Origin: Methylorubrum extorquens
GTDB lineage: Bacteria; Pseudomonadota; Alphaproteobacteria; Rhizobiales; Beijerinckiaceae
Direction of reading: 5' to 3'
Length of the DNA: 32,000 nucleotides
Assembly: GCA_900234795.1 (NCBI GenBank)
Contig: LT962688.1
Span: 3,720,001 to 3,752,000 of the forward strand
In this document: piece by piece, positions 11,238 through 27,793 of the stretch
Numbering within the stretch: the first letter of the stretch is position 1
How the letters are laid out: each line of letters begins with the position of its first letter
Translations under genes and position numbers: made by a program
The notes under the pieces: generated by a model
The model's input: only the letters and a program-made list of their open reading frames with translations
Told to the model about the DNA's origin: nothing
Database searches by the model: none

Positions 11238-11692
11238 CGACTGGCTCCTTGGCCTCGCCGGACAGGATGCAAGGATCGCGAGACCTGTCGAGGTGGATTC
11301 GCGCGGAATGGGCGCTCGGCCCACCCCGCCCGCGCCCTCTAGCAAGAACGACGCCCGCCCGAGGTTGCTCGATGTCGGACGCGCCTCTCGCGCGCGATAT
11401 GGCTATTCGCCCATGCGCCAGCGTAAATTGCAGGGCGATTTGGCTACGCGCGAAGCTTTCCAGAAGACGAGCGGAAACCTCTCCGCCGCCGTGATTCGGC
11501 CGACATGCCGGGGGCCGCGCGGTTGCCGGCGGCGAATCACCGGCAAATTCGCGAACGCCCAGCTGTCATACGCTCAGCGACCCGCGTTTTTTGTAGGCGG
11601 GCCAACGCGTTTCCGGTTGAGTTCCGGATTTTCATCCTTCCGATCCGTCACTTTCGTGTCAGATTGCGCATTATTTCGCTTGCCTGCATGGC

Positions 11693-11702
11693 TGGTATAC
11701 CA
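11693..11702. promoter_or_regulatory. Perfect 10-bp palindrome TGGTATACCA in the long leader of the antiporter gene (GntR/FadR-type operator shape)
   Basis: It lies in an unusually AT-rich stretch, ~155 nt upstream of ATG 11857. A related half-site GCATACCAA follows at 11709-11717. The match to the GT-N-AC operator pattern is by shape only. Confidence 0.3.
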
Positions 11703-11856
11703 AATAATGCATACCAATGCCCGGGGCGAGATCGCCGCTCGGATCCCCTGGGCAGACAAGGAAACGCAACAACCTGCACTGACCACTTCTCAAGCCCAAA
11801 ACGCCAAACCTACGCAACAGGCCTTCACGTCTGTGCAGGAACGAGGGAGCACGCTC

Positions 11857-13342: not shown

Positions 13343-13393
13343 TGGTGGGCGCGACAGGGATCGAACCTGTGACCCCTACCATGTCAACGTACT
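13343..13393 (-). other. 3' half of tRNA-Val(GAC), not a complete tRNA: likely att site of the adjacent island
   Basis: The reverse complement reads ..TTGACAT-GGTAG-GGGTC-ACAGG-TTCGATC-CCTGT-CGCGCCC-A-CCA. That gives the anticodon loop with GAC, the 3' anticodon stem, variable loop, T-arm, 3' acceptor strand and CCA. No D-arm or matching 5' acceptor strand follows. Confidence 0.7.
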
Positions 13394-13534
13394 CAGGCCG
13401 AACCGCCCTCCCCCATCAAAACCAACCTTTTCCTGAGGCCGGTCAATGCGTTGCGATCCATTCCCGTGCAGCGCCGTGCAGTCCCATCTAGCCCCCGTAC
13501 AGTGGGTTTCCATCCCATTTCCAACCCGGGTCGG

Positions 13535-14816
13535 TTACGCCGCGGCGGCCCGCTTCTGGTACTCGGAATGGGTGTGGCCGTAGGTCTCCAGGACCATCTT
13601 CACGGTCATGCCGAGGTACTCGCCGACCTCGTGCGGGGGGCACGCCGGCCTGGAGCATCAGGGTCGCCCGGGTGTGCCGGAGGATGTGCGGCGTCGGCAT
13701 CCCGAGGTCGTCGTCCTCGTCCTCGTTCCCGACGCGCCAGGAGCCGTCGATCTCGCGCCGGTCCAACCCGGCGAGCGCGGCCGCCCGGCCGAAGGCGCCG
13801 TCGACGCGCTCCATGCTCACGCCCCGCTCGTGGACGACGTGCGTGGGGGCGAGGCCGCTCGCCAGGTCGGCCTTCCGCCATTCCAGGAGGCGGGGCAGGA
13901 GCCGGTCCGGGATGCGGCATGGCGGCTGGCGCTTGCGGCTCGGCGGGGCCTCGGGTCCGGCCCGGAACAAGGTGACGCCGTTGAAGTCGACCCATCCGTC
14001 GAGGCGGTCGCGCTTCCATCGGAGCCCGAGGATCGCGCCGGACCGGGTGCCCGAGTAGAAGCCGATCTCGATGAAGCGCTCCAGGTGGTCGTCGTGGTGG
14101 TAGGCGTCGCCGGCCTTGGCCTTCCACGCCGTTACGAAGGCGGTGTCCCGGGCGCGCTCCCAGACGGGCTCGCGGGTCGCCAGGTCCGACGAGACCCAGC
14201 GCCAGCCTTGGGCGACGCGCAGGAGCCGGGCGTACTCGGACTCGGTGAGCCAGTCGACGTGCGGCTTGCCCGCGGGCGGCAGGGTCACGACAGGCTTGGC
14301 GTGCAGGGTGAACTCGCGGTGCCAGTGCCCGATGGCGGCGCCGAGGGTCTGAAGCTCGCGCCCGGCGGTCGTGGGCTTCGTGAGCTTCCCCTTCCCCTTC
14401 GCGCCCGGCGGCCGCCAGCGCTCCTTGCAGCGGGCCTCGACGTAGGCCCGGCACGAGGCCGCCTTCACCTGCGCTAGGGTCTTGCCGCCCCAGTGGCGGA
14501 GGAGGTTGGCGATGTGGTGCCCGGTCAGGGAGGCGTTGGACGTGCCCTCCTTCGCCTGGCCGTAGAAGGCGAGGCAGGTGGCGATGGAGACGAGGCGGGG
14601 GTCCTGGTTCGTCGGGTCGTCGTCGGAGGGCGTGATGACGGCCTCCTCCTCCGCCTGGCGGTCGCGCTCGATTACGTAGAGCGCGAGCTCCTTTTCAGCC
14701 TCGCCGCGATGGCCAGGGCCGTGCGATGTGCGTCGCTTGTAGTCCCCGTCGTGGATGGCCCAGACGCCGCGGTCGACGTCGAGCTTGAGCCGCGCGGGCT
14801 TGCGGGGGCGTGCCAT
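13535..14816 (-). pseudogene. Tyrosine recombinase (phage integrase family) with a frame shift in a G6 run (13635-13640, plus strand) just before the catalytic Tyr
   Basis: ORF 13488..14828 reads ...GMPTPHILRHTRATLMLQAGVPP and then nonsense. Dropping one base gives HEVGEYLGMTVKMVLETYGHTHSEYQKRAAAA with stop at 13535-13537, the canonical box II / Tyr ending. The probable start is MARPRKPARLKLD at 14816. Confidence 0.85.
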
Positions 14817-16675: not shown

Positions 16676-16846
16676 CTAGTGTACGGTGACGGTGCGTGCG
16701 CGCAGGGCGGCGGCCGCCCTGACGACGCGGTTGGCCTCCAGGGGCGTGAGCCCCTTGAGCGCGGCCCGGACCGCCACCGGGTCGGTCTCGCCCGAGAGGG
16801 CCTCCGCCAGCCGGCAGGCCCGGGTGCGGGTCTCCTGCTCGCTCAT
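16676..16846 (-). CDS. Small hypothetical protein (56 aa)
   Basis: Hand translation gives MSEQETRTRACRLAEALSGETDPVAVRAALKGLTPLEANRVVRAAAALRARTVTVH. A GGGAGG sequence lies upstream, and the ATG overlaps the stop of the upstream gene (ATGA at 16843-16846). Confidence 0.45.
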   Translation of the reverse strand: MSEQETRTRACRLAEALSGETDPVAVRAALKGLTPLEANRVVRAAAALRARTVTVH

Positions 16847-17988
16847 GCCTGCCTCCCGGCCGCGGCGGCGTCCGCCCGCACGAAACGAATCGCCTCGTCC
16901 GCCCCGAGGCCGGCCCTCTGCGAGAGGGCGACGGCGAGGACGAGGTCATCGAGGCCGAGGCGGTTCGGGAAGGCGACGTCCCACTGCACCGTGGCGCGGG
17001 GGGCGACGGTCGCCGGGACCGGGGCGGGCTCGGCGTGCGGGGCCGGCGTGAAGGCCACCACGTTCGTGACCTCGGCCGCCGGCGCGGGGGCCGGGAGCGC
17101 GGGCACCGCGGGGGCGTCCGGACGCCTGAGCCCGAGGCGCTTCAGCGTGCCGTAGACGTAGCAACGCGAGACGCCCCACCGCTCCGCGAGAGTGGAGACG
17201 TTGGGCGTCTCGGTCCACTGGAGGCGGATCGTGGCTTCGTCGGGCAGTCGGGAGTGGCGGGGACGACGGGACAACATGGCGGACTCCTGGGCGACAGGGA
17301 TGGCAGGGCTCTCGGCGGGAGGGGCGGCCGCCTCCCGTTCGGCGTCCACCGGCTCCTCGACCCCGCGGGGCAGGAGGCCGGGGAAGGCACGGTCGACGGC
17401 GTCCGGCGGGTGCCCGGCGAGGGCGGCCGCGAGCTCCGGCGAGATCTCGGGGAGGCGGTAGCGCCCTGTGGCGGGCTGCTCGGGCACCAGTGCCAGGGCG
17501 GCCCGCATCACGGCGTACAGGTCCCGCTCATGCTCCAGCCTGGCCTCGATGCGGGCCGCCGCGTCGGCGTCGCCGCGGCTGGCGAGATGGCCGTCGCGCG
17601 AGTTCTCGCCCCGGGCGGCGCCCCGGAGCTTCGGCATGTCGGCGAGGCCGCGCTCCTGGAGCACGTACGTGAGCGACGCCAGCCCCATGCCGGCGGCGCG
17701 CTCGCCCGCCCGCCCGCTGCCCACGAGGAACGCGACCTCGACCGCCGCTGCCTCCTGGGCGGGCGAGGTCGTCCGCTTCTTACCGGGGTTGAGCGACCGC
17801 ATGCCAAGGCGGGCGCGGCCGGTGCGGGCCAGGTTGCCCAGCGTCCGGACGTCGATCCAGTGCCAGCGCTCCTCGGCGGCCTCCGCGCCGTACTGGTCGA
17901 AGAGCCGGGCCACGGCCTCGGGGGCGGGCGTCATGTAGACGTCGCGGTCGATGGAGCCGCCGACCTCCCGGGTGCGGCGGGCCTTCAC
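16843..17988 (-). CDS. Hypothetical protein (381 aa) with an internal HTH-like segment
   Basis: The GTG start at 17988 overlaps the upstream stop (GTGA) and has a GGAGGG sequence 5 nt upstream. The product reads VKARRTREVGGSIDRDVYMTPAPEAVARLFDQYG...LQWTETPNVSTLAERWGVSRCYVYGTLKRLGL... The remaining upstream part of ORF 16843..18804 is a shadow frame. Confidence 0.55.
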   Translation of the reverse strand: MKARRTREVGGSIDRDVYMTPAPEAVARLFDQYGAEAAEERWHWIDVRTLGNLARTGRARLGMRSLNPGKKRTTSPAQEAAAVEVAFLVGSGRAGERAAGMGLASLTYVLQERGLADMPKLRGAARGENSRDGHLASRGDADAAARIEARLEHERDLYAVMRAALALVPEQPATGRYRLPEISPELAAALAGHPPDAVDRAFPGLLPRGVEEPVDAEREAAAPPAESPAIPVAQESAMLSRRPRHSRLPDEATIRLQWTETPNVSTLAERWGVSRCYVYGTLKRLGLRRPDAPAVPALPAPAPAAEVTNVVAFTPAPHAEPAPVPATVAPRATVQWDVAFPNRLGLDDLVLAVALSQRAGLGADEAIRFVRADAAAAGRQA

Positions 17989-18197
17989 GCGTCCCTCCGG
18001 AGGCTGACGAATCGCTCGATGCGCCGCAGGTCGAGGGCCGCGAGAACGCGCTCCCCGACGGCCCGTCGGCCCTTGATGACGTCGTTGACGTAGGCGGCCG
18101 AGACGCCGGCCTGCTGGGCGAACGCCTTCTGCCCGCCGGCCTCCCGGATGGCCGTCGAAAGCCGGGCGCGGACGTCGTCTACGGTGAGATCGGTCAT
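17985..18197 (-). CDS. Cro/YdaS-like HTH DNA-binding protein (70 aa)
   Basis: MTDLTVDDVRARLSTAIREAGGQKAFAQQAGVSAAYVNDVIKGRRAVGERVLAALDLRRIERF. A GGAGGG sequence lies upstream of ATG 18197. Confidence 0.65.
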   Translation of the reverse strand: MTDLTVDDVRARLSTAIREAGGQKAFAQQAGVSAAYVNDVIKGRRAVGERVLAALDLRRIERFVSLRRDA

Positions 18198-18662
18198 GCT
18201 GCCCTCCGGGCGCGGTAGGCGGCCACGCGGGCGCGGGCGGCCTCGATGTTGGCCCGGGTCCTGGTGGCCCTGGGGTAGTCGAGGCCCCCGCTCGCGCAGG
18301 AGCGTCCTGACCATGCTCTCGGGGATGCCGGTGGCCTCGGCGGCGTAGAGGACGCCCCCGAGCTCCAGCGCCACGGCGACGACCTCCTCCTCCTGCGCCG
18401 GCGAGAGGTTGCGCCGGACCTTGGCGCTGCGCTCCCCCACGGTGATCGCGCGCCCCTGGGCGATCATGCGGCCGAGGTCGCTCTTGGACATCCACCACCA
18501 GCGGCCGCGGCAGCTCTCGTAGCCGTGCGAGACGGACTGCCGGTAGACGCGCACGGGGTCCGGGCGGACGTGAAGCGCGGCCGTCATGCTCCGCTCGGCC
18601 TCGTCGCGGCGGGGCGGGCGGACCCTGGCAGGGGGCGGCGGGGTCCAATCGAAGAGGCTCAT
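18194..18662 (-). pseudogene. HTH-containing regulatory protein (~155 aa) with an apparent frame shift in a C5 run (18285-18289)
   Basis: MSLFDWTPPPP...MSKSDLGRMIAQGRAITVGERSAKVRRNLSPAQEEEVVAVALELGGVLYAAEATGIPESMVRTLLRERG is followed by poor sequence. Dropping one base gives LDYPRATRTRANIEAARARVAAYRARRAA, with a stop overlapping the next ATG (ATGA). The start choice at 18662 is based on third-position GC. Confidence 0.5.
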
Positions 18663-18827
18663 CTGGCGCACGGCGGGGTTCCCGAATTCGCGTATCGGCA
18701 AATGTTCGTCCTCGACCCATGGCAGCGCAACGGCTACAGACATGGCAAGATGACGCACCCCCTATGTAGAGTTGGGACAAAGGTAAGGTCAGGATCGCCC
18801 CCAACAGCGGACGACGATTTGCACCAC

Positions 18828-18955: not shown

Positions 18956-19676
18956 ATGGCCCCCATCGACCCGAACTTCCTCCCCGACTTCCTCCGCGAC
19001 GAGCACCTGCCCCCCGCCCGTCGTCCTGCCGCCCGAGCCGCTCCGCGACTGGACCGCGTCCGCCGCCGCCCGGAGCCTCGCCGAGCGGGAGGAGCGCCGG
19101 ATTGCGAGCGCCAAGGCGTGGGCCGAGGAGTGCCGCCTGCGCCGGGAGCGCCTCGTGGCGCGTGCCCGGGCCGCGGCGACGGAGAGCCTGCGCGAGAGGC
19201 CGTGGGCCTGGGCGACGGCCGCCCTGATCGCGGAGGCGGAGGCCCTGCTCGCCCTGGAGGTTCTGGTCGAGCCCGACGCCGAGCGTCTCCTCAAGCTCGC
19301 CAAGGCCGCCGACGCCGCGGCCGCCAAGGCGCTGGAGGCCTCGGCCGTCCCCGTCCCGACGGAGGCGGAGCTTGCCCGTGACCCTGCCATCCGCGAGGCC
19401 TGCCGCCTGGGGCTGCACTACATCACCGTGCTCGACAGCGACCGCGCCCGGGTCACGAACGATTCGGGGTGGTCGAGGTCCACGACGGTGATGGGGCACG
19501 TGCTCGACGCGCTGCCCGAACTCGATGAGGCGCAGGCCAGCCACGCGCTCCGCATCCTCCGCATCCACCGCCGCCAGCTGCCCGACATCCTGGCCGGGGC
19601 CGTGTTCGAGGGGCTCACGCTCCCGCCGCGGCGCCTGCACATGTCCCCGATCTCGACCTCGGGCGCCCGGGCATGA
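18956..19676 (+). pseudogene. Hypothetical protein (~239 aa) with an apparent frame shift in a C6 run (19010-19015)
   Basis: MAPIDPNFLPDFLRDEHLPP in frame 2 continues after removal of one C as PVVLPPEPLRDWTASAAARSLAEREERRIASAKAWAEECRLRRERLVARARAAATESL... This joins ORF 19155..19676. Confidence 0.55.
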
Positions 19677-19877: not shown

Positions 19878-19987
19878 TCCCCATCGGCGCGCAGGACCAA
19901 TGACCCCATCGGCGTGATGCACCGATGAGGGGGCGGGCTATCGGTGTGGAGGACCGATGACAGTCATCGGCGTGGAGGACCGATGAC
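19878..19987. repeat. Four tandem ~25-32-bp units, each an inverted repeat CATCGG(C/T)G-N6-8-(G/C)ACC(G/A)ATGA (iteron/operator-like array)
   Basis: The units start at about 19878, 19903, 19928 and 19960. An exact 15-mer TGGAGGACCGATGAC occurs at 19947-19961 and 19973-19987. A local palindrome CCGATGAC-A-GTCATCGG lies at 19953-19969. Confidence 0.7.
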
Positions 19988-19995
19988 CCCTCAGG

Positions 19996-20164
19996 CCCAT
20001 CTCGCCCCATCCATGCCCATGGGCTGCCATGGTGGCTCCATGGGGCGGCCATGGGAGCCTGGGAGGGGGGCGACAGGGGCTAACCCATTGGGAATGCGCC
20101 ATGCGTCCCATCTCGCCCCATGGGGCTGCCATGGGCTGCCATGGGCTCTCATGGGCCGGGATGG
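19996..20164. repeat. Phased (C/T)CATGG array, in two clusters with 10-11-bp spacing
   Basis: CCATGG occurs at 20017, 20027, 20038 and 20049, and again at 20118, 20129 and 20139. TCATGG at 20149 and GGATGG at 20159 continue the phase. Each cluster is preceded by the exact 15-mer CCCATCTCGCCCCAT (19996-20010 and 20107-20121). Confidence 0.7.
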
Positions 20165-20526
20165 GCCTGGCGAGGGAACTTGGTCAGTAGCCCCGCTTGA
20201 TCGTCTCCACCCATGGCGTACTTGAAGACCGCGGACTGATCGTCGCCGAGGTAGGCCTCGGCCTCCACGATGCCCAGGTCGCGGTTCTTGGCAAGGCTGC
20301 GCCGGTACTGCCACCCGGCGACCATCCAGGGCGTCGGATCGCGGAAGGTGTCCCCAGTCGCGCGGCGCATGTCCTCGGAGACCGCCTTGACGCTCTCGTC
20401 CACCACCCAGGCGCAGGCCCGGCGGAATTTGCCGTAGCTCGTCTCGGAGACGTACTGCTCCTCCCACGCGGCGAGGACCTCGCTGAGGTCGCTGACGAAG
20501 GAACCGTATGAGGGGGGTCGGGCCAT
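20149..20526 (-). CDS. Hypothetical protein (125 aa)
   Basis: MARPPSYGSFVSDLSEVLAAWEEQYVSETSYGKFRRACAWVVDESVKAVSEDMRRATGDTFRDPTPWMVAGWQYRRSLAKNRDLGIVEAEAYLGDDQSAVFKYAMGG... Third-position GC is good except over the last ~20 codons, which run into the CCATGG array, so the 3' end may be altered. Confidence 0.5.
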   Translation of the reverse strand: MARPPSYGSFVSDLSEVLAAWEEQYVSETSYGKFRRACAWVVDESVKAVSEDMRRATGDTFRDPTPWMVAGWQYRRSLAKNRDLGIVEAEAYLGDDQSAVFKYAMGGDDQAGLLTKFPRQAHPGP

Positions 20527-20843: not shown

Positions 20844-22604
20844 CTACGCCTGGACCTGGGAGAGGCTGCCCTGAGGCCTCCGGCCCTGCCCCTGGAGGGA
20901 GGTTGCCTGGAGGCTCCGCCCGGCCCTGGACGAGGCCTTCCCGGGCTTCGCCTTGCCCGGCAGGCGGTCGGGAACCAGGGCCCTGGGAAAGGCGCGCATG
21001 CCGGTCTCCACCTCGTGGGCGATGAGGTCGTGGGCGAGTTCGATGACCGCGGCCCGGCGCATGTCCCAATCCACCCAGGAGGAACCCGGTCCGGCCTGCT
21101 GGCGCTCGAAGGCGAGGAGACGGGTCTGGTACGCGATCATCGCCTCCAGACGCTCGGCCGGCACCCAGGAGACCGTGCGAGGCTCGGGAGCGACGGAGGG
21201 AGCGGGCGACGCCGGAAGGGACTGCATGGGCGAGAAATCGACCTTGGCGACACCCTCCTTGAGACCGGCCTCGCGCGAGGGTGGCGACACGGCCGGGGCG
21301 GAGGCGGGAGGCGCCGCCGGGGCGGCGGGCCCGGGACGGGCCGTTTGTCGGATCGTTCTCGTCGAAGTGGTTGAAGTTGTTCCAGAAAGCCTGACGCGCG
21401 TCGTGTCGAGAACCTCCTGCATGATGGCGGTCACATGGCCGCCCGACCGCCGGGGCGCGAGGAAGGAATCGTGCACCGGCAGGACGCCGTCCACGCCGGC
21501 CTTGCGGCACCGCTTCATGACGTCGATGGCCATGCCGCTGTCGATGGCCATGAGGCGGATGCCGGCGTCCGACCCAAGGAACTCGCGGATGAGCTCGTTG
21601 CGGTGCGCGACCTCGTCGAGCAGAAGCTCGGTGTAGCACCGGGTCTCGGACCAGCCCGGCTTCCACATGAGCGCGTCGACGGCGCCCTTCATGGAGCCGG
21701 CGTTGATGGCGACGTTGAGGGCCCACTTGCAGTGCTGCCGGGGGAAGCGGTCGGTGTCGTAGGGGTCGAAGTCCAGGCGCACACCCTTCATGGCGTAGAG
21801 GAGGGTCGGGTGGAGGGCGGCGAAGTCCTCCTCGATGAGGAGTTCCCCGTTGATGAGGAGTTCGCCCCGGCGCTCCTTGGGGAGCTGCTGCCACCAGCCG
21901 TAGAGCCTGCCGTGGCAGTCGTGCCTGCCGCGCCCGAGGATGCGGACGATGCTGTTCGAGGGGGTCGGCAGGGCGCAGGCCCACGTCTCTCGGCCGTCCC
22001 GGACCTTCCGGCCCTTCAGGTGGTGCTCGGTCCTCTGCCAGTCCTCGGGGGAGGCGTCGGGGGACAGCGTCACGTCGAGGCCGGCGAGCCATTCGTTGAT
22101 GCCGTCGACATCGGCCTGCATGCGCCGGGTCCGCTCGGTGTTGGGCAGGCGCATGGCCCTGCCGTCCTCGTCCCGCATGATGAGCGTGGCGGGGGGCGTC
22201 ATGTGCTCGAACCGGGTGCCGGCGAGGCGCTCGACGAGGAGCGGGGTGGCGCGGATCCTGGACTGGAGCGGGACCTTGGCGAGGTGGGCGCCGCGCTTGG
22301 CCCTGACCTCCTCGATGAGGCCGGCCTCGCCGAGGCGGGAGACCGAGGCGACGACGGTCGAGTAGGAGATGGGCGTCCGGTCGTAGTGCCCCTCGGCGTA
22401 CCAATCCCTGCTACGGGAGTACGAGAGCCACTGCATGTCCGTCTCCGCGGCGAGGCCGAGGGCGGCGACCATGCTGGAGAGCGTGCGCTCGTGCCGGTCG
22501 CAACCGGTCGGCGCGATGCCGAGGGCGGCGACGGCCTTGGGGCTCGCTCGCCAGTCGAAACCCCAGGTACGGTCCCTGGGACGTTCGGATGTGTGGGGGA
22601 TCAT
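20844..22604 (-). CDS. Compact family-A (Pol I/T7-like) polymerase-motif protein with an initiator-like N-terminal region and a C-terminal extension
   Basis: ORF 20844..22673 opens at a TTG; the first ATG is at 22604, and an ATG at 22436 has a GGAG sequence upstream. Motifs appear in canonical order: HGRLYGWWQQLP (21897-21914 and following), EEDFAALHP (21807-21833), RQHCKWALNVAINAG (21696-21740), GMAIDVMKR (21510-21536) and PVHDSF (21462-21479). All matches are by hand alignment only. Confidence 0.55.
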   Translation of the reverse strand: MIPHTSERPRDRTWGFDWRASPKAVAALGIAPTGCDRHERTLSSMVAALGLAAETDMQWLSYSRSRDWYAEGHYDRTPISYSTVVASVSRLGEAGLIEEVRAKRGAHLAKVPLQSRIRATPLLVERLAGTRFEHMTPPATLIMRDEDGRAMRLPNTERTRRMQADVDGINEWLAGLDVTLSPDASPEDWQRTEHHLKGRKVRDGRETWACALPTPSNSIVRILGRGRHDCHGRLYGWWQQLPKERRGELLINGELLIEEDFAALHPTLLYAMKGVRLDFDPYDTDRFPRQHCKWALNVAINAGSMKGAVDALMWKPGWSETRCYTELLLDEVAHRNELIREFLGSDAGIRLMAIDSGMAIDVMKRCRKAGVDGVLPVHDSFLAPRRSGGHVTAIMQEVLDTTRVRLSGTTSTTSTRTIRQTARPGPAAPAAPPASAPAVSPPSREAGLKEGVAKVDFSPMQSLPASPAPSVAPEPRTVSWVPAERLEAMIAYQTRLLAFERQQAGPGSSWVDWDMRRAAVIELAHDLIAHEVETGMRAFPRALVPDRLPGKAKPGKASSRAGRSLQATSLQGQGRRPQGSLSQVQA

Positions 22605-22744
22605 GGAGGCCTGCACGGCGTGTGTTGGAGGGCATACGCCAGGCCGGCACCACACGGCCTCGCGCACCCACAAACGTGGCCGCGTCGCTGGAAATCCGCC
22701 AGTGCCATCAAGGACCTAGCCTTAACCGCCGGGTTAACCAGACC

Positions 22745-22990
22745 CCATGGTGGCTCCCCCATCCAAGCGGGCCCCATGGCAGGTCCATTTTCTCCCATGA
22801 GAAGCCCATGACCTCGCGGCGAGTGGCACCCGGCGACCTTCGGGAGCGCGACATGCCCTGGCGGGCATCCAGGCGCCTTGGCGGGCCATGCATAAAAATG
22901 TGCAGGGCCTGGCCGGTGGTCGCGGAGCCATTCCGAAAACGCTGGCTGGTCCATCGGGCCCCATGGGACACCATGGGGCGGACGCATGGC
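22745..22990. repeat. Second set of phased CCAT(G) arrays, sharing words with the 19996-20164 arrays
   Basis: CCAT occurs at 22745, 22759, 22774, 22785, 22795 and 22806, and at 22951, 22961, 22971 and 22984. The 13-mer CCATGGTGGCTCC (22745-22757) equals 20027-20039, and CCATGGGGCGG (22971-22981) equals 20038-20048. Orientation is the same in both sets. Confidence 0.6.
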
Positions 22991-23040
22991 TCGATGGGAT
23001 CGGGCAAGGGCCGGCCACGAATCGAGCAAGCCGTCCTTGG

Positions 23041-23062
23041 GTCTCCTCAGATCTGAGGAGAC
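23041..23062. repeat. Perfect 22-bp palindrome GTCTCCTCAGATCTGAGGAGAC
   Basis: Read directly from the sequence. It lies at the right margin of the CCATGG-rich region and has no T-run on either side. Confidence 0.6.
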
Positions 23063-23338
23063 CCCGGTTCCGACGCGCGGGGGAAGCGGATGGCCCGGAC
23101 GCCTGGTGGCGGCGCGGCGAACCGCCAACCCTGGAGTCCCATCCACCAGGAGCCCGCCCCCGTGTTACACCGGGGCCGCCTACGTCACCTCGCTCCAGGC
23201 CGATCTCGCCGGCGCCCGCGCCGAGGCCTTGACCGCAAAGGCGGACGCCGCGGGCAAGGCGGCCGCCATCGCCGCCCCGGCCTCGTCCGATGACCCGGTC
23301 GCCCCCGTCCTTCGCGACGCCCTGGAGGGCCTCAGCCC

Positions 23339-23572
23339 GTGAAGCGCCTGCTCCTCCTCCTCGTCGCCGTCCTGCCGCTGGCCGCCGCCCCCCCCGAGAG
23401 GCCGGCGCTCTCGATCCCGGGGAGCCTGCTGCGCTGTGCCCCCCCGTCCCGTCCCCCGGCCGGCGGGACGCAGCGACAGGTGGCCGGCTACGTCGTCGAC
23501 CTCGCCGACGCCCACGCCGATTGCCAGGGCAAGCTCTGTCGCGTGCGCGGCCTGGTGGAGGGCGCGCGGTGA
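23339..23572 (+). CDS. Putative spanin-like/lysis-module membrane-anchored protein (77 aa, GTG start)
   Basis: MKRLLLLLVAVLPLAAAPPERPAL...RQVAGYVVDLADAHADCQGKLCRVRGLVEGAR has an N-terminal hydrophobic anchor plus a ..YV.DL..A...C..KL..+ ending, as in Rz/Rz1-type proteins of alphaproteobacterial prophages. It is GTGA-coupled to an upstream startless ORF fragment (~23180-23342). Confidence 0.35.
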   Translation: MKRLLLLLVAVLPLAAAPPERPALSIPGSLLRCAPPSRPPAGGTQRQVAGYVVDLADAHADCQGKLCRVRGLVEGAR

Positions 23573-23732
23573 GCGGCCCGGCCGCCCTGATGGCGCTCTA
23601 CTGCCTGACGGCCGCCCCGGCCCCGGCGGTCGACGCGCCGGTGATGGCCGCGCTCCGGGGCGAGCCGCGGCCTTCCGCAAAGGCGGACGTCGCCGCGGTC
23701 CTGCTCGCCCTCACGCCACGCCGGAGAGCCCG

Positions 23733-23876
23733 ATGACCGAGGACGCCCACGCCGTCGTCGAGGCCACGAGGCGCCTGGTTCGCCAGCGCCTCTGCTACCT
23801 GGAGCGGGCGCTCGCCGCCCTCGATGCTGGGGGAGACCTCCCATGGCTGACGCCGACCCCTGCCGCCGCGTCCTGA
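23733..23876 (+). CDS. Small hypothetical phage-like ORF (47 aa)
   Basis: Hand translation gives MTEDAHAVVEATRRLVRQRLCYLERALAALDAGGDLPWLTPTPAAAS. The ATG overlaps the preceding stop (ATGA). Support is weak. Confidence 0.3.
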   Translation: MTEDAHAVVEATRRLVRQRLCYLERALAALDAGGDLPWLTPTPAAAS

Positions 23877-24055
23877 CCCCGGCCGAGGAAGCGCGCCTGT
23901 TCGCCCGCGACGCCGTCCGCGCGGCCCGTGCCTCCTGGTCCCGCCCGGCCGACGAGGGCGCCGCCATGATAGCCGTGCTCGTCGTCCTGGCGGCCGAGGC
24001 GATGTTCCCCGAGCTCCTGTCCGAGCCCGAAACGGACGGTGCAGGTAAAGCGTAG
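23843..24055 (+). CDS. Small hypothetical ORF (70 aa)
   Basis: MADADPCRRVLTPAEEARLFARDAVRAARASWSRPADEGAAMIAVLVVLAAEAMFPELLSEPETDGAGKA. It has a C-terminal hydrophobic segment. Support is weak. Confidence 0.3.
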   Translation: MADADPCRRVLTPAEEARLFARDAVRAARASWSRPADEGAAMIAVLVVLAAEAMFPELLSEPETDGAGKA

Positions 24056-24280: not shown

Positions 24281-24407
24281 GATGTTTGGTCCCGCTATGT
24301 GGTGGTACGACTGATGCCGCATGGAGGGACGCGCTATGGGACAGGTTCTCCACGGCAGCGCCACGACGACTGCGACGGTCCGTCGGGCAATCCAAGCTCG
24401 TCAAGAG
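24281..24407 (+). mobile_element. Relic of an IS481-family insertion sequence (left end plus the first ~24 transposase codons)
   Basis: ATG 24336 gives MGQVLHGSATTTATVRRAIQARQE, which matches the conserved IS481-family transposase N-terminus (MGQVLHGSA.TT..VRRAIQ.SQES...) as I remember it. Similarity stops at about 24407. Confidence 0.4.
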
Positions 24408-25876
24408 TGGGCGCCGCGGGCAAGGTCCCGTCTGACGCCGCCGACGAGTTGCTCGCGGAGGCCGAAGCCGCCGCCGCCGCCGTCTCCGGCTACGAGGACG
24501 CGGCCGCCAAGGCGAGGCAGTACGTCATTCAACGCATCCCGAAGTTCATCTACGTGGCCGAGTTCCCGGAGCTGTCCGGCCACCAGGATATCGAGGAGCT
24601 CCTCTATAGGCCGAGCCCCCACCACGGGCATCCCGGCAAGAAGCGCGACGACCACGACGAGAGTGAGCTCAACTTCCTCAAGATGGCGAAGGTCGCCGGC
24701 TTCGACCCGGAGCGCCTGTACAAGCTCGGGGCCGAAGGCCACGAGGAGCGTTCTCAGCTCCTGAACCGCGCCGGGGCCGTCATCTCAAGCCGATTGCGCG
24801 AGCGGTGGAAGGACCGGTCGCTCAAGGTCCGGTACAACCTCGACGGCAACCACCTCGACACGCTCGTATCGGACCCGAACACGTCCTACGACGTCGAGGT
24901 GAACCTCGACGAGCGCAGCCGCGGCCTGCGCTGGTTCTTCGCCTTCTACGTCACCTTCACGGCCGACACCCAGGGCGGCGACGCCGACGGCGCCATCCTG
25001 CTGCTCGACGAGCCAGGCCTCTTCCTCCACGCCATGTCGCAGGGCGACCTGCTGAGGCACCTCAAGAACGACTTCGCGAACCAGGTCGTCTACACGACGC
25101 ACTCGCCCTTCATGATCCCGCCGGACGACGTCGCCTCGGCCCGGACGGTGAACATCTCGCAGGACGAGGGCACGACGGTCACCGACAGCCCGACGGGGGA
25201 CGAGCGCACGCTGTTCCCCCTTCAGGCCGCGCTCGGCTGGACGCTGGCGCAGTCGCTGTTCGTGGGCCCGAACAACCTCCTGGTCGAGGGCGTGACGGAC
25301 TTCTGGATACTCTCGGCCGTGAACGGCTGGCTGAAGCAGAACGGCGCGAAGGGAACGCTCCCGGCCGACCTGGCGCTCACCCCGGTCGGGGGCGCGGGCA
25401 AGATGACCTACATGGCGGCCTTGCTGACGGGGCAGCGCCTGAACGTGTTCGCCCTGCTGGACGGCGATAAGGCCGGCCACGACGCGCAGCAGGAGCTCGT
25501 CCGCGGGAAGCTCCTGAACCAAAAGTCGATCTTCTTCGTGACCGAGGCGTTCGACCCGCCGGCCAAGGAGGCGGACATCGAGGACCTGCTCGACCCCAAG
25601 GTCTACGAGGATCTGGCCCGCCGCGCCTACGCGAAGGAACTCGCCAAGGTCACTCTCAAGCTGAACGACAAGGTCCCGCGGATCGTCAAGCGCTTCGAGC
25701 TCGCCTTCGAGGAGAAGGGCCTGACCTTCGATAAGGGCAGGCCGGCCCGCCTGTTCATGACCGAGATGGCCTCGCGACCGGCAGACCTGGTCGACGCGGC
25801 GACCAAGGCCCGCTTCCTGAGGCTGTTCTCGGTGATCGTTAAGAGGATGACGACGGTCGCGGCCGCCGCGGCCTGA
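24407..25876 (+). pseudogene. OLD-family ATP-dependent nuclease (ABC-type ATPase + TOPRIM) lacking its N-terminal Walker A region
   Basis: The ORF contains a signature/Walker B region ...RGLRWFFAFYVTF...AILLLDEPGLFLHAMSQGDL and an H-loop VVYTTHSPFMI. A TOPRIM domain follows: NNLLVEGVTDFWILSAVN...LTPVGGAGKM...ALLDGDKAGHDA. No GxxGxGK(S/T) motif occurs in any frame upstream. Confidence 0.75.
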
Positions 25877-27438: not shown

Positions 27439-27793
27439 GTGCCACCGCAAGTCCGCTCAACCCCGTCGGCACACCCGGTCAGGGGACCGAGGCCTCCGGC
27501 TTCGACGCTGGCGGCACGCGTCGCCGCCGCTTTCGCCCCGAGACTCGCAACGGTTAGGTTCGGCCTTTGTTTCACAAGCATGGGCCGCATCGCGCCCAGA
27601 CTTACTTTCCATCTCGCGCCGCGGTCGATGCCACGACCAACCGGCGGCTGAACGGGTTCCGCCACTTGCGGCCACGCTCCCAAAGCCGACAAAATGGCGG
27701 CATAGGGCGGACCGTCGGACAGGCCTGCCGTGCTCCGAAGCCAATCAGACGGGAATGGAGCGCGGCCGGGTTCGGCCGCCGGGGTCGAGCGTG

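What the first reader, a model, noticed from the sequence alone, without database searches (positions are those of the whole stretch)
20844..22604. Miniature family-A (Pol I / T7-like) polymerase-fold protein encoded in an integrated element
**Motifs seen.** The minus-strand ORF carries, in canonical order, hand-alignable counterparts of five family-A polymerase motifs:
- HGRLYG-WWQQLP (from 21897), compared with Klenow TGRLSS..NLQNIP and T7 RNAP DWRGRVY;
- motif A, EEDFAALHP (21807-21833), compared with DYSQIELR;
- the O-helix / motif B, RQHCKWALNVAINAG (21696-21740), compared with RRSAKAINFGLIYG, with the conserved Tyr replaced;
- GMAIDVMKR (21510-21536), compared with QGTAADIIKRAM;
- motif C, PVHDSF (21462-21479), compared with QVHDEL and T7 RNAP IHDSFG.

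**Why it is unusual.** The span from TxxGR to motif C is only ~150 aa, against ~215 aa in Klenow. I see no exonuclease domain. The N-terminal ~230 aa look like an initiator/winged-helix region, and a Pro/Ala linker leads to a further ~150-aa C-terminal domain. I know of no characterised polymerase or replication-initiator family with this architecture.

**Context.** Iteron-like arrays lie on both sides. This suggests a self-replicating or self-priming module of a mobile element, although a defence-type nucleotide polymerase is also possible.
Basis: partly seen in the sequence, partly recalled or inferred. Interest (0 to 1): 0.85.

Follow-up and report, generated by a model that had tools for sequence, protein, structure and literature searches.

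The report
Minimal family-A polymerase on integrative element
The gene encodes a real, stripped-down relative of DNA polymerase I and T7 RNA polymerase on a small integrated mobile element, but it belongs to a very large family already described by computation (TV-Pol, divPolA2), whose biochemical role is still untested.

Summary
The minus-strand ORF 20844-22604 (586 aa, Methylorubrum extorquens) carries the family-A motifs at the stated coordinates. They are almost invariant in 100 relatives that share under 50% identity. A confident AlphaFold model (core pLDDT above 95) matches only family-A polymerases in the PDB: Bst, Aquifex and apicoplast Pol I, then mitochondrial and T7 RNAP.

The novelty claim does not hold. 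Profile comparison places the protein with the published phage "divPolA2" (E 5.7e-13 to 4.5e-21). Its core and its integrase/resolvase neighbourhoods fit the 2008 "TV-Pol" family, whose species list includes Methylobacterium. The family has at least 10,700 clusters at 50% identity, has no Pfam or NCBIfam model, and has no biochemistry.

New details found here:
- The N-terminal domain contains a weak winged-helix match.
- A His replaces the steric-gate Glu, and an Asn replaces the O-helix Tyr.
- CCATGG arrays phased at 10-11 bp flank the gene. One set lies between convergent gene ends. The arrays recur in five related elements.
- Some homologues, but not this protein, end in a β-clamp-type motif, QG(S/T)LF.

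The most likely role is replication initiator/primase-polymerase of an integrative element of about 11 kb. This is inferred, not shown. Verdict: new member of a known kind, moderate interest.

The parts
20844..22604 (-). Gene for the 586-aa minimal family-A polymerase (divPolA2 / TV-Pol-type), stop codon included
   Evidence: The ORF and its codon bias are. An identical annotated protein is. phrog_4756 matches at E 1.3e-27. The AlphaFold model has pLDDT 83.4. Foldseek PDB hits are all family-A polymerases. hhalign against divPolA2 AUR84708 gives E 5.7e-13 and 4.5e-21.
21930..22604 (-). N-terminal domain, aa 1-225. Aa ~36-120 form a winged-helix-like unit carrying the near-invariant SYSR (61-64) and QSR (114-116). 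A beta-rich part and a long helix (157-174) follow and may stand in for the thumb.
   Evidence: A separate model has pLDDT 88.3. The best PDB matches are all winged-helix DNA binders, but weak: E 5e-3 to 0.2. The thumb role is an inference; the divPolA2 paper (PMC11348598) makes the same suggestion.
21375..21929 (-). Polymerase core, aa 226-410: a beta-hairpin with G232-R233, a palm (RRM-like) and short fingers of about 80 aa
   Evidence: Secondary structure is. Foldseek aligns about 250 columns to Aquifex and apicoplast Pol I at rmsd about 5.5 Å, probability 1.0.
21879..21914 (-). T/DxxGR-type motif HGRLYGWWQQLP (aa 231-242). G232 is 21909-21911 and R233 is 21906-21908.
   Evidence: G and R are each 100/100 in diverse representatives.
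21807..21833 (-). Motif A, EEDFAALHP. The catalytic D260 is at 21825-21827. The invariant H265 (21810-21812) sits where family-A DNA polymerases have the steric-gate Glu.
   Evidence: E is 97/100, D 100/100 and H 99/100. The register against Klenow DYSQIE is by hand alignment.
21696..21740 (-). Motif B / O-helix, R289xxxK293 ... N297 ... N301. Asn stands where Pol I has F762 and Y766 and where T7 RNAP has Y639.
   Evidence: R is 96, K 99 and N(K+8) 97 of 100. A helix spans 289-301 in the model.
21462..21479 (-). Motif C, PVHDSF. The catalytic D379 is at 21468-21470.
   Evidence: H is 97, D 99 and S 93 of 100. The only local hhalign match to T7 RNAP falls on its IHDSFG.
20940..21374 (-). Disordered Pro/Ala linker (aa 411-471) and a small helical C-terminal unit (aa 472-555). 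The unit is clade-specific and absent from most of the family.
   Evidence: pLDDT is below 50 for 410-471, and helices span 482-534. The typical family length is about 400 aa.
20149..20526 (-). Downstream co-oriented 125-aa gene of unknown function, a possible partner protein
   Evidence: It is a called gene. It is conserved downstream of the polymerase gene in 8 Methylobacterium/Rhizobiales loci only. Pfam, PHROGs and PADLOC give no hit.
19992..20169 (.). Two inverted arms of CCATGG repeats, at 20017/20027/20038/20049 and 20118/20129/20139(/20150), phased at 10-11 bp. Candidate iterons / origin.
   Evidence: See (inverted repeat I1). The arms lie between the convergent 3' ends of the 239-aa gene (+, ends 19676) and the 125-aa gene (-, ends 20149), so they cannot be promoters of those two genes.
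19883..19987 (.). Four copies of a 22-nt repeat, ATCGGCGTGGAGGACCGATGAC, each with an internal inverted repeat ATCGG..CCGAT, spaced 25-32 nt apart
   Evidence: (family D2).
22744..22977 (.). Upstream control region of the polymerase gene: CCATGG/CATGGG sites (22744-22811 and 22960-22977) on either side of an AT-rich box, CCATGCATAAAAATGTG (22886-22902)
   Evidence: The block structure is conserved upstream of the homologous gene in five elements, with 63% mean column identity.
13538..14816 (-). Tyrosine integrase, the last gene of the leftward gene string. It is frameshifted near 13637 in this assembly.
   Evidence: Pfam Phage_integrase matches.
13343..13400 (-). tRNA 3'-half-like fragment (T-arm, acceptor and CCA) next to the integrase; probable att remnant and left end of the element
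   Evidence: ARAGORN finds no complete tRNA. Housekeeping genes lie to the left.
17988..18197 (-). 70-aa Cro/CI-type HTH regulator of the element
   Evidence: Pfam YdaS_toxin, HTH_31 and HTH_3 match.

Best explanation
**Shown.**
- The ORF encodes a catalytically intact, minimal family-A polymerase of the divPolA2 / TV-Pol kind.
- It has an N-terminal domain of about 225 aa containing a winged-helix-like unit.
- This is followed by a palm-and-fingers core of about 185 aa. The core has the β-hairpin Arg, both catalytic Asp and an RxxxK O-helix.
- There is no exonuclease domain, and no Pol I-type thumb was recognised.
- The gene is the first in a leftward gene string ending in a tyrosine integrase. 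This string forms an integrated element of about 11 kb (roughly 13.35-24.3 kb) that has no other recognisable replication gene and no capsid genes.

**Inferred.**
- The protein is the element's replication initiator/primase-polymerase.
- After excision, its N-terminal domain (or a partner) recognises the phased CCATGG repeats of a cis-acting origin between 19.9 and 20.2 kb.
- The same motif upstream of its own gene gives autoregulation, as in iteron plasmids.
- The core starts a short strand de novo or extends one, which host replication proteins then take over.
- The invariant His at the steric-gate position and Asn in place of the O-helix Tyr suggest relaxed or altered sugar selectivity. That would suit a primer-making enzyme.
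For: **Fold and active site.**
- Foldseek against the PDB returns only family-A polymerases at the top (1xwl E 1e-4; 8jrb, 5dku, 9bps at about 250 aligned columns, probability 1.0; then mitochondrial and T7 RNAP).
- The model is confident.
- The catalytic signature is 93-100% conserved over 100 representatives below 50% identity and in 44 close homologues.

**Family.**
- phrog_4756 matches.
- BFVD hits to phage proteins of about 430 aa reach E 5e-21, TM 0.65.
- hhalign to the divPolA2 reference gives E 5.7e-13 and 4.5e-21, and to a Klebsiella phage homologue over both domains E 1e-21.

**Mobile-element and replication link.**
- In the 80 retained loci (79 genome loci plus the window), a tyrosine integrase lies within about 4 kb upstream, mostly on the same strand and directly adjacent in several, in 23 loci. 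A serine resolvase is nearby in 12. These are the neighbourhoods on which Iyer et al. 2008 (PMC2579912) based the primase-polymerase prediction.
- The related SCCmec CcPol, together with MP, is an experimentally shown A-family primase (PMC7581432, PMC10061031).
- This element has no other replication gene.

**Cis sites.**
- CCCATGG is enriched 3.5-fold and clustered around the gene.
- The sites are phased at 10-11 bp, and one set lies between convergent gene ends.
- The same motif and an AT-rich box are conserved upstream of the gene in five diverged elements.

**N-terminal domain.** Its best structural matches are winged-helix DNA binders.

**DNA-synthesis link in relatives.** Q.[SDTN]LF (β-clamp-type motif) occurs 20 times against 1.6 ± 1.3 expected. 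It is always C-terminal of the core, and in 13 proteins it is at or within about ten residues of the C-terminus.
Against: - There is no biochemical data for any member that has this N-terminal domain.
- No helicase or SSB partner is recognisable in the element, unlike CcPol-MP-Cch2 or the D5-fused TV-Pols.
- The repeat arrays are a feature of one Methylobacterium subclade, not of the family. The most repetitive window lies next to the gene in only 10 of 64 loci, against about 9% expected.
- The winged-helix match is weak, with no hit below E 1e-3.
- The window protein itself lacks the clamp motif; its tail is ...PQGSLSQVQA.
- In phages, divPolA2 coexists with a replicative PolB, sits in variable neighbourhoods and can occur in 2-3 copies (PMC11348598). 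That is odd for an essential primase.
- Motif C is HDSF as in T7 RNAP, and the steric-gate Glu is missing. Both would equally fit an RNA polymerase.
- Sequence-only links to canonical Pol I and T7 RNAP are not significant (Pfam 0 hits; hhalign E 0.075-0.35).
Confidence: 0.5

Rival explanations
1. It is a single-subunit RNA polymerase that transcribes genes of the element (or of the phages that carry homologues). This would be a miniature T7/N4-type enzyme whose N-terminal domain recognises promoters.
For: - Motif C is (V/I)HDSF as in T7 RNAP, and the only local hhalign match to T7 RNAP falls there.
- The steric-gate Glu of DNA polymerases is replaced by an invariant His.
- Mitochondrial, T7 and N4 RNAPs appear among the Foldseek hits.
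- UniProt auto-names the protein 'DNA-directed RNA polymerase'.
- A conserved motif lies upstream of the gene.
Against: - Pol I-type DNA polymerases score better than RNAPs in Foldseek.
- The Tyr that selects rNTPs in T7 RNAP (Y639) is Asn here.
- There is no Pfam RNA_pol match.
- The repeats are phased arrays. One set lies between convergent gene ends, unlike single promoters placed in front of transcription units.
- Relatives carry β-clamp-type motifs, which make sense for DNA synthesis and not for transcription.
- The family is linked to integrases and resolvases, not to late-gene modules.
Confidence: 0.17
2. It is an accessory DNA polymerase for repair or gap filling. For example, it could fill gaps made during integration, excision or transposition, or act in damage tolerance, rather than start replication.
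For: - The active site is intact and there is no proofreading domain.
- The gene is tightly linked to recombinases.
- Relatives carry β-clamp-type motifs, as translesion polymerases do.
- Phages with a replicative PolB also carry divPolA2, and its authors suggest repair (PMC11348598).
Against: - Tyrosine and serine recombinases leave no gaps to fill (established knowledge of these enzyme classes).
- Repair does not explain the large, conserved, probably DNA-binding N-terminal domain, or the conserved repeat arrays around the gene.
- No SOS- or repair-type neighbours were seen.
Confidence: 0.15
3. It is a defence or counter-defence nucleotide polymerase, making a signalling or decoy nucleic acid. 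It would be carried as cargo next to an OLD/GajA-like nuclease gene.
For: - An Old/GajA-like ATPase-nuclease gene lies 1.7 kb away, at 24299-25876.
- Mobile elements often carry defence cargo (general knowledge).
Against: - PADLOC gives no hit for the protein or for its small neighbour.
- The OLD-like gene is not conserved next to the polymerase in the other loci.
- The conserved partners are recombinases.
- Lytic phages carry the family too.
Confidence: 0.05
4. The polymerase fold is retained only as a scaffold. The protein acts purely as a DNA-binding regulator or initiator and has no catalytic activity.
For: - The fingers are short, and the O-helix aromatic residues are lost.
- Rice (2023) notes that some mobile-element 'Pol' proteins retain little more than a possibly vestigial RRM core (PMC10061031).
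Against: Both metal-binding Asp, the β-hairpin Arg and the RxxxK motif are 96-100% conserved across very divergent members. That is the pattern of an active enzyme.
Confidence: 0.03

Closest known systems
divPolA2 (divergent phage PolA variant 2; Virol J 2024, 21:200, PMC11348598; reference protein AUR84708 of Vibrio phage 1.063.O)
   Same: - It is homologous by profile comparison (97.9-99.4% probability, E 5.7e-13 to 4.5e-21).
- It has the same architecture: an N-terminal globular domain of unknown type, a minimal palm-and-fingers core, no exonuclease and no Pol I-type thumb.
- The BFVD matches include a Rheinheimera barbavirus protein.
   Different: - This protein is on a bacterial integrative element, not a phage.
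- It carries an extra Pro/Ala linker and a helical C-terminal unit.
- Its subfamily has His at the steric-gate position and HDS in motif C. AUR84708 has Glu and FDE.
- The paper reports no detectable similarity for the N-domain. Here a weak winged-helix match is seen.
TV-Pol family (Iyer, Abhiman & Aravind 2008, Biol Direct 3:39, PMC2579912), the subset with an N-terminal domain
   Same: - It has the minimal family-A core: a β-hairpin Arg, two catalytic Asp and RxxxK in the fingers.
- Proteins are 400-600 aa with no nuclease domain.
- It sits next to λ-type integrases or γδ-resolvases in mobile elements of diverse bacteria.
- The paper's species list includes Methylobacterium populi and M. nodulans.
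- The primase-polymerase role is predicted from context.
   Different: - No named TV-Pol sequence could be fetched for a direct test.
- The comparison with Ma-LMM01 gp030 (the probable TV-Pol of that phage) is only suggestive, at E 0.002.
- TV-PolN was predicted to be all-helical, but this N-domain is α/β in the model.
- This element has no D5-like helicase.
SCCmec CcPol-MP primase (Bebel et al. 2020 eLife, PMC7581432; Rice 2023, PMC10061031)
   Same: [quoted passage not shown]
- It is the only relative with biochemistry: template-dependent, primer-independent DNA synthesis.
   Different: [quoted passage not shown]
- None of these partners was recognised here.
- It is a Bacillota lineage thought to derive from Pol I by truncation.
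Bacterial and organellar DNA polymerase I polymerase domain (Klenow, Bst, Aquifex Pol I, apicoplast apPOL)
   Same: - These are the best structural matches.
- Motifs A, B and C are in canonical order.
- The D[YF]xxL[E/H] and RxxxK registers match.
   Different: - Motif A to motif C spans 119 aa here against about 177 aa in Klenow.
- There is no 3'-5' exonuclease domain and no Pol I-type thumb.
- The steric-gate Glu is His.
- F762 and Y766 are both Asn.
- Motif C is HDS, not HDE.
- Pfam DNA_pol_A gives no match.
T7-type single-subunit RNA polymerases (T7 RNAP, mitochondrial RNAP, N4 mini-vRNAP)
   Same: - They share the superfamily fold.
- Motif C HDSF is identical to that of T7.
- Neither has a steric-gate Glu.
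   Different: - This protein is less than half their size.
- The promoter-binding N-terminal domain, specificity loop and intercalating hairpin were not recognised.
- Y639 is Asn.
- Pfam RNA_pol gives no match.
Iteron-plasmid Rep initiators and initiator-primases (RepA/RepE/π/TrfA; ColE2 Rep). This is a functional analogy only.
   Same: - The proposed logic is the same: a winged-helix protein encoded next to phased direct repeats and an AT-rich box, with the same motif in its own promoter region.
- From my own knowledge, TrfA binds the β clamp through QLSLF, and ColE2 Rep both recognises its origin and makes the primer.
   Different: - There is no sequence or family relationship (Pfam 0 hits).
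- The catalytic part is a family-A polymerase, which no known Rep has.
- Binding, melting and priming are all untested.

Membership tests
Family-A polymerase superfamily (Pol I / T7 RNAP fold) | Palm (RRM-like) with the fingers inserted after its first strand, structurally superposable on solved family-A enzymes | tested here: met
   The AlphaFold model has a core pLDDT above 95. The top 43 Foldseek PDB hits are all family-A DNA or RNA polymerases, with the best at E 1e-4 and probability 1.0.
Family-A polymerase superfamily (Pol I / T7 RNAP fold) | Two metal-binding Asp (motifs A and C), the O-helix Lys with RxxxK, and the conserved Arg of the T/DxxGR hairpin | tested here: met
   D260 is 100/100, D379 99/100, K293 99/100, R289 96/100 and R233 100/100. 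They are invariant in 44 close homologues.
Family-A polymerase superfamily (Pol I / T7 RNAP fold) | Significant match to the curated sequence models (Pfam DNA_pol_A PF00476 or RNA_pol PF00940) | tested here: not met
   Pfam gives 0 hits at E up to 10 for this protein, and no polymerase-family hit at E up to 1 for six relatives. hhalign against T7 DNAP gives E 0.15-0.35 and against T7 RNAP E 0.075-0.13.
Family-A DNA polymerases (Pol I type) | Steric-gate Glu five residues after the motif A Asp, and aromatic O-helix residues (F762 and Y766 in Klenow) | tested here: not met
   His is found in 99/100 at D+5. Asn is found at K+4 (65/100) and at K+8 (97/100). The register is by hand alignment of DYSQIE with DFAALH.
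T7-type single-subunit RNA polymerase | Motif B Tyr (Y639) and a promoter-recognition apparatus (N-terminal domain, specificity loop) | tested here: not met
   The Tyr position is Asn. The N-domain matches only winged-helix proteins, weakly. The protein is 586 aa against 883 aa.
divPolA2 (PMC11348598) | Homology to the reference protein AUR84708 | tested here: met
   hhalign gives 97.9% probability at E 5.7e-13 with a 17-sequence profile, and 99.4% at E 4.5e-21 with a 100-sequence profile.
divPolA2 (PMC11348598) | An intact palm with an N-terminal globular domain in place of the exonuclease and thumb | tested here: met
   See the models. A full-length alignment to a 426-aa Klebsiella phage homologue covers both domains.
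divPolA2 (PMC11348598) | Encoded by Caudoviricetes phages alongside a regular DNA polymerase | tested here: not met
   Here the gene is on an integrative element of about 11 kb with no capsid or other polymerase genes. This concerns the setting, not homology.
TV-Pol (PMC2579912) | Minimal core as defined in the paper: β-hairpin Arg, two Asp in an RRM palm, an RxxxK fingers helix, and no nuclease | tested here: met
TV-Pol (PMC2579912) | Neighbourhood with a λ-type integrase, a γδ-resolvase or a transposase in mobile elements | tested here: met
   An integrase is present in this element. Among the 80 retained loci, an integrase lies upstream in 23 and a resolvase is nearby in 12.
TV-Pol (PMC2579912) | Demonstrable sequence relationship to a named TV-Pol member | tested here: inconclusive
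   The sequence lists are not held. Ma-LMM01 gp030 lies next to IS605-type transposases and is presumed to be that phage's TV-Pol. It gives hhalign E 0.002 at 14% probability, with the R.Y / D....H / K.A....N.A motifs in register. The paper lists Methylobacterium populi and M. nodulans members.
TV-Pol (PMC2579912) | N-terminal TV-PolN domain, predicted to be all-helical | tested here: inconclusive
   This N-domain is mixed α/β in the model. No TV-PolN sequence was available for comparison.
PolA-SSB primases (CcPol-MP type; PMC10061031) | An adjacent small OB-fold ssDNA-binding partner, and a helicase in the operon | tested here: inconclusive
No helicase was found in the element.
Iteron-type replication initiators (functional class) | A winged-helix DNA-binding domain and phased direct repeats next to the gene, with the motif repeated in its own promoter | tested here: inconclusive
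   The winged-helix match is weak. The arrays are present and conserved in this subclade, but are not general to the family. Binding is untested, and no Rep family matches by sequence.

The most novel reading that the evidence does not exclude
One polypeptide would be both the origin-recognition protein and the first polymerase of a mobile element. Its winged-helix N-domain would bind the phased CCATGG iterons (and the same motif in its own promoter). It would open the adjacent AT-rich box. Its minimal family-A core would then start a strand de novo, with sugar selectivity altered by the steric-gate His and the O-helix Asn. Synthesis would then pass to the host replisome, and in sister proteins the hand-off would use a C-terminal β-clamp motif. 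That would make it a 'Rep that is itself a Pol I-type polymerase', a way of starting replication not shown for any plasmid, phage or integrative element. It would also assign a function to a family of more than 10,000 protein clusters.
Probability: 0.25. Interest if true: 0.75.

Novelty: new member of a known kind. Interest (0 to 1): 0.42.

Why it matters
- **Size of the gap.** The family is very large: at least 10,703 clusters at 50% identity, of which 4,634 score E ≤ 1e-30. It occurs across Proteobacteria, Bacteroidota, Desulfobacterota and many marine and enteric phages, including ICP1. It has no Pfam or NCBIfam model and no biochemical data.
- **What it could teach.** It is among the smallest versions of the Pol I / T7 RNAP catalytic core, so it bears on what that fold needs in order to work.
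- **The open question.** It is not settled whether these enzymes are primases, DNA polymerases or RNA polymerases.
- **Why this copy is useful.** It comes with a compact element, candidate cis sites, clear catalytic residues to mutate, and a genetically tractable host (M. extorquens). It is therefore a good place to settle a question that two computational papers left open.
- **What it is not.** It is not a new kind of protein.

Tried and rejected
- **Sequence libraries.** Pfam, NCBIfam and PDB sequence searches with the protein, plus a PDB search with a 44-sequence profile, gave nothing or only low-complexity noise from the Pro/Ala linker.
- **Canonical polymerases by sequence.** hhalign of family profiles against single T7 RNAP and T7 DNAP sequences gave only sub-significant matches at motif C. 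The link to family A therefore rests on structure.
- **Direct TV-Pol test.** The paper's supplement is only a link. The substitute, Ma-LMM01 gp030 and its 6 homologues, gave E 0.002, which is suggestive but not proof.
- **Naming from distant representatives.** No names were on record.
- **Prophage or satellite.** I found no capsid, terminase or other phage structural gene. PHROGs gave only one marginal spanin-like hit for a 77-aa ORF. I rejected a complete prophage. A satellite remains possible but unsupported.
- **att sites.** I looked for a second att copy or an intact tRNA in the window and found none. The right boundary (about 24.3 kb) rests only on the point where two of the listed assembly contigs (L001 and L003) end.
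- **RNA and signals.** Rfam had no match above noise, and there were no σ70-type promoter hits in 19.6-23.2 kb.
- **Iterons as a family-wide feature.** They are not. They occur in 10 of 64 loci, mostly one subclade.
- **Defence.** PADLOC gave no hit for the polymerase.
- **Gene mapping.** My first mapping of neighbouring genes by simple coordinate arithmetic failed because the window has three 1-nt indels relative to the Logan contigs. I corrected it with tblastn.

Full report
**1. The observation.**

The window is about 70% G+C. The minus-strand ORF 20844-22604 (ATG; 586 aa) has strong coding bias, with GC3 0.90 and GC2 0.54. It is identical to an annotated Methylorubrum extorquens protein, SOR30599.1, labelled 'conserved protein of unknown function'. 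Homologue N-termini support the ATG at 22604.

- motif A at 21807-21833;
- motif B at 21696-21740;
- GMAIDVMKR at 21510-21536;
- motif C at 21462-21479;
- the D260, D379 and K293 codons.

The exception is the first motif, which spans 21879-21914 rather than starting at 21897.

The motifs are not chance look-alikes. In 44 homologues, G232, R233, E258, D260, H265, K293 and V377-H378-D379-S380 are invariant. In 100 representatives that share under 50% identity with one another, conservation is as follows:
- GR: 100/100;
- ExD: 97/100 and 100/100;
- His five residues after the Asp: 99/100;
- RxxxK: 96/100 and 99/100;
- Asn eight residues after the Lys: 97/100;
- HDS: 97, 99 and 93 of 100.

**2. 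The fold.**

Sequence libraries are silent. Pfam gives no hit at E up to 10, NCBIfam gives none, and PDB sequence searches give only noise.

An AlphaFold2 model built on the 44-sequence alignment is confident: mean pLDDT 83.4, above 95 through aa 20-400, with disorder at 410-471 and 556-586.

Foldseek against the PDB puts only family-A polymerases at the top:
- Bst Pol I (E 1e-4);
- Aquifex Pol I and the apicoplast polymerase (about 250 aligned columns, rmsd about 5.5 Å, probability 1.0);
- then yeast and human mitochondrial RNAP, T7 RNAP, Pol θ and N4 vRNAP.

The secondary structure reads as a β-hairpin carrying G232-R233, then the motif A strand ending in D260. The fingers follow, about 80 aa long, with the O-helix at 289-301. 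Next come a long palm helix (348-368), the motif C hairpin (375-384) and a closing helix.

R233 to D379 is 146 aa, so the core really is much shorter than in Klenow. There is no exonuclease domain.

**3. It is not an orphan.**

- PHROGs holds the family as phrog_4756, function unknown (E 1.3e-27).
- Foldseek against predicted viral structures finds phage proteins of about 430 aa with the same two-domain layout. Aeromonas phage 4L372D scores E 5e-21 with TM 0.65. A Rheinheimera barbavirus protein labelled 'DNA polymerase' is among the hits.
- tblastn finds homologues in large Klebsiella and Vibrio phages. A Klebsiella phage homologue in turn matches 108 phage records, including ICP1.
- hhalign aligns that phage protein with the Methylobacterium profile across both domains, at 99.4% probability and E 1e-21.
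- A full HMMER scan of 1.84 billion representative proteins finds 10,703 clusters at E ≤ 1e-3 and 4,634 at E ≤ 1e-30.
- A genome scan finds members in many Alphaproteobacteria. It also finds them in Desulfovibrio, Flavobacteriales, Nitrosomonas, Lentisphaeria, Gallionella and Zetaproteobacteria.

**4. What the literature already says.**

Iyer, Abhiman and Aravind (2008; PMC2579912) defined 'TV-Pol' as a minimal family-A core with a β-hairpin Arg, two Asp, RxxxK fingers and no nuclease. It occurs in mobile elements and viruses. One subset has an extra N-terminal domain and sits next to λ-type integrases, γδ-resolvases or transposases. Their species list includes Methylobacterium populi and M. 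nodulans. They predicted a primase-polymerase role.

The SCCmec member CcPol, together with the small OB-fold protein MP, was later shown to prime DNA synthesis (PMC7581432; PMC10061031).

A 2024 survey of phage polymerases described 'divPolA2' (PMC11348598). It has an active palm, no thumb homologous to those of other DNA polymerases, no exonuclease, and an N-terminal globular domain with no detectable similarity to known domains. It occurs in barbaviruses and other phages that also have a PolB. The authors suggest a repair polymerase or an RNA polymerase.

I fetched their reference protein, AUR84708, and compared it with my profiles. The result was 97.9% probability at E 5.7e-13, and 99.4% at E 4.5e-21 with a 100-sequence profile. 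Membership in divPolA2 is therefore shown.

For TV-Pol the defining core and the neighbourhoods are met. Among the 80 retained loci (79 genome loci plus the window), a tyrosine integrase lies within about 4 kb upstream in 23. In these it is mostly on the same strand and directly adjacent in several. A serine resolvase is nearby in 12. I could not obtain a named TV-Pol sequence. The probable TV-Pol of phage Ma-LMM01, gp030, lies beside IS605-type transposases. It gives only E 0.002, with the motifs in register.

No paper in the library reports biochemistry for this architecture.

**5. The element.**

Called genes on assembly contigs that carry the identical protein were mapped onto the window by tblastn. 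They give the following layout.

| Window coordinates | Strand | Product |
|---|---|---|
| 22604-20844 | − | polymerase |
| 20526-20149 | − | 125-aa protein |
| 18956-19673 | + | 239-aa protein |
| 18743-15125 | − | string of genes: 182 aa, 70-aa Cro-type HTH, 381 aa, 56 aa, 268 aa, 82 aa, 163 aa |
| 14816-13538 | − | tyrosine integrase |

- A tRNA 3'-half fragment lies at 13343-13400, just beyond the integrase.
- Housekeeping genes lie further left: purE, acs, ilvD, eutB and an MFS transporter.
- To the right of the polymerase gene, five small plus-strand ORFs (23106-24055) diverge from it.
- Two of the listed assembly contigs (L001 and L003) stop at 24335. Beyond that point lie an Old/GajA-like gene, a Tle1-like gene and a subtilase.

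Apart from the integrase and the HTH protein, nothing in the element matches Pfam or PHROGs. There is no helicase, no Rep and no capsid or terminase. The polymerase is the only candidate replication protein.

**6. Cis elements.**

CCCATGG occurs 21 times in the window against 6.0 ± 2.7 expected, and 15 of these lie between 20016 and 22977.

Between the convergent 3' ends of the 239-aa and 125-aa genes there are three features:
- four 22-nt repeats, ATCGGCGTGGAGGACCGATGAC, at 19883-19987;
- CCATGG sites at 20017, 20027, 20038 and 20049;
- CCATGG sites at 20118, 20129, 20139 and (half-site) 20150.

The two CCATGG sets are spaced 10-11 bp apart and form the arms of a 56-nt inverted repeat. Because the flanking genes converge on this region, the repeats cannot be their promoters.

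The same motif recurs upstream of the polymerase gene, at 22744-22811 and 22960-22977. These sites flank an AT-rich box at 22886-22902, in a genome of 70% G+C.

This upstream layout is conserved in five elements whose polymerases are only about 36-47% identical in the homologue alignments. The mean column identity of the non-coding alignment is 63%. One of these elements also has a dense phased array downstream (L019).

The feature is not general, however. Across 64 loci the most repetitive window lies next to the gene in only 10, mostly this subclade.

**7. The N- and C-terminal parts.**

A separate model of aa 1-225 has pLDDT 88.3. It matches only winged-helix DNA binders in the PDB: Fur, PerR, Zur, PadR, CodY, LmrR and the replication terminator protein. 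The matches are weak, at E 5e-3 to 0.2. The winged-helix unit is aa ~36-120. It carries the near-invariant SYSR and QSR motifs. The rest of the domain is β-rich with a long helix (157-174).

The C-terminal extension consists of a linker and a helical unit of about 55-75 aa. It is confined to some Methylobacterium proteins.

Thirteen of those relatives, but not the window protein, carry KPQG(S/T)LF at or within about ten residues of the C-terminus. Seven more distant relatives carry Q(L/G/P/R/S)[DS]LF about 65-125 aa after motif C. In total there are 20 matches to Q.[SDTN]LF against 1.6 ± 1.3 in shuffles, and all lie C-terminal of the core. From my own knowledge this resembles the β-clamp-binding consensus QL[SD]LF. 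That consensus is typically C-terminal in bacterial polymerases and is also used by the RK2 initiator TrfA.

**8. How it most likely works.**

Shown:
- a conserved, probably active family-A nucleotidyl-transferase core;
- fusion to a probable DNA-binding domain;
- location on an integrative element;
- family-wide linkage to recombinases.

Inferred:
- The protein initiates and/or primes replication of the excised element. The CCATGG arrays would serve as origin iterons and autoregulatory sites.
- The invariant His at the steric-gate position and Asn at the O-helix Tyr position point to altered sugar or template handling, which would fit primer synthesis.
- The clamp-type motifs in relatives favour DNA synthesis over transcription.

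I put this at about 0.5. The rivals are an RNA polymerase (about 0.17), a repair or gap-filling polymerase (about 0.15), a defence function (about 0.05) and a catalytically dead scaffold (about 0.03).

The main weaknesses are:
- there is no biochemistry;
- no helicase or SSB partner was recognised;
- the winged-helix match is weak;
- the arrays are clade-restricted;
- phage copies sit in variable contexts alongside a replicative PolB.

**9. Verdict.**

The claim of an unknown architecture is not right. This is a new member, in a bacterial integrative element, of a family described by computation in 2008 and 2024 and still lacking experiments.

Interest is moderate. The protein is not surprising to someone who knows TV-Pol or divPolA2. 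This copy does, however, offer a compact and tractable system, with candidate cis sites, for deciding what this very large family does.

Noticed in passing
Homologues P0013-P0016, P0018, P0020, P0027, P0028, P0032, P0076, P0090, P0096, P0104 (C-termini); P0148, P0152, P0156, P0168, P0203, P0213, P0240: A β-sliding-clamp-type motif occurs in relatives. KPQG(S/T)LF lies at or within about ten residues of the C-terminus in 13 of them, and Q(L/G/P/R/S)[DS]LF follows the core in 7 more. There are 20 matches against 1.6 ± 1.3 in shuffles, all C-terminal of motif C. The window protein has only the degenerate PQGSLSQVQA.
   Followed up: partly
window ~13637, ~19010, ~18267: The window has three single-base indels relative to four independent assembly contigs that are otherwise 99.95% identical. 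Each one breaks a gene: the integrase, the 239-aa gene and the 182-aa gene. They could be decay of the element in this strain or sequencing errors.
   Followed up: partly
window 13343-13400 (-): A tRNA 3' half (T-arm, acceptor stem and CCA) lies without a 5' half, directly beyond the integrase gene. There is no second copy and no intact tRNA anywhere in the 32 kb. It is probably an att remnant, and the partner site lies outside the window or has been lost.
   Followed up: partly
window 24299-25876 (+) and 25894-27450 (-): An Old/GajA-like ATPase-Toprim gene lies just beyond the point where the element contigs end. Its matches start only at about position 280 of the profiles, so the Walker A part may be missing or very divergent. 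A convergent T6SS Tle1-like phospholipase-domain gene lies beside it. Together they may form a separate defence or effector islet.
   Followed up: partly
window 23040-23063; L027 and L029 upstream regions: A near-perfect palindrome, GGTCTCCTCAGATCTGAGGAGACC, is conserved in three of the five aligned elements (the window, L027 and L029), upstream of the polymerase gene. Its function is unknown; it could be a hairpin, a terminator or a binding site.
   Followed up: no
window 22700-22740 (minus-strand 5' region of the gene); alignment A4 columns ~385-480: A conserved non-coding block, GGTTAAC..GCGGTTAAGGCTAGG.CCTTGA...CACGTTTGTGGGTGCGCG, lies just upstream of the start codon in 4-5 diverged elements. 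It has no Rfam match and no σ70-type promoter hit.
   Followed up: partly
window 16846-17988 (-) and 18267-18743 (-): The 381-aa and 182-aa element proteins are paralogous over about 100-125 aa (33-34% identity). The 381-aa protein also has a sub-threshold GcrA-like HTH match.
   Followed up: no
L035, L037, L044, L066, L075 (Rhizobium/Agrobacterium loci): In these genomes the polymerase gene follows a tyrosine integrase gene on the same strand. Genes resembling a DNA methyltransferase and a large helicase-type restriction subunit (by inspection only) lie a few kb away. This recalls the mobile-element and R-M hot spots noted by Iyer et al. 2008.
   Followed up: no
L006 (Vibrio phage VnaP) 6172-9537; In phage VnaP the homologue is bracketed by two HNH endonuclease genes and fragments of a split DNA methylase. 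Many phages carry two copies of the family. This hints that the gene travels in mobile cassettes within phage genomes.
   Followed up: no
Family as a whole: The family has more than 10,000 clusters at 50% identity but no Pfam or NCBIfam model. UniProt's automatic name for the identical protein (A0A2N9ATA7) is 'DNA-directed RNA polymerase', while NCBI calls it hypothetical.
   Followed up: yes
window 11000-13000: G+C is lower here (0.63-0.64) than in the rest of the window. The stretch contains the most AT-rich segments of the window (11647-11717), in and before an MFS-transporter gene just left of the element.
   Followed up: no
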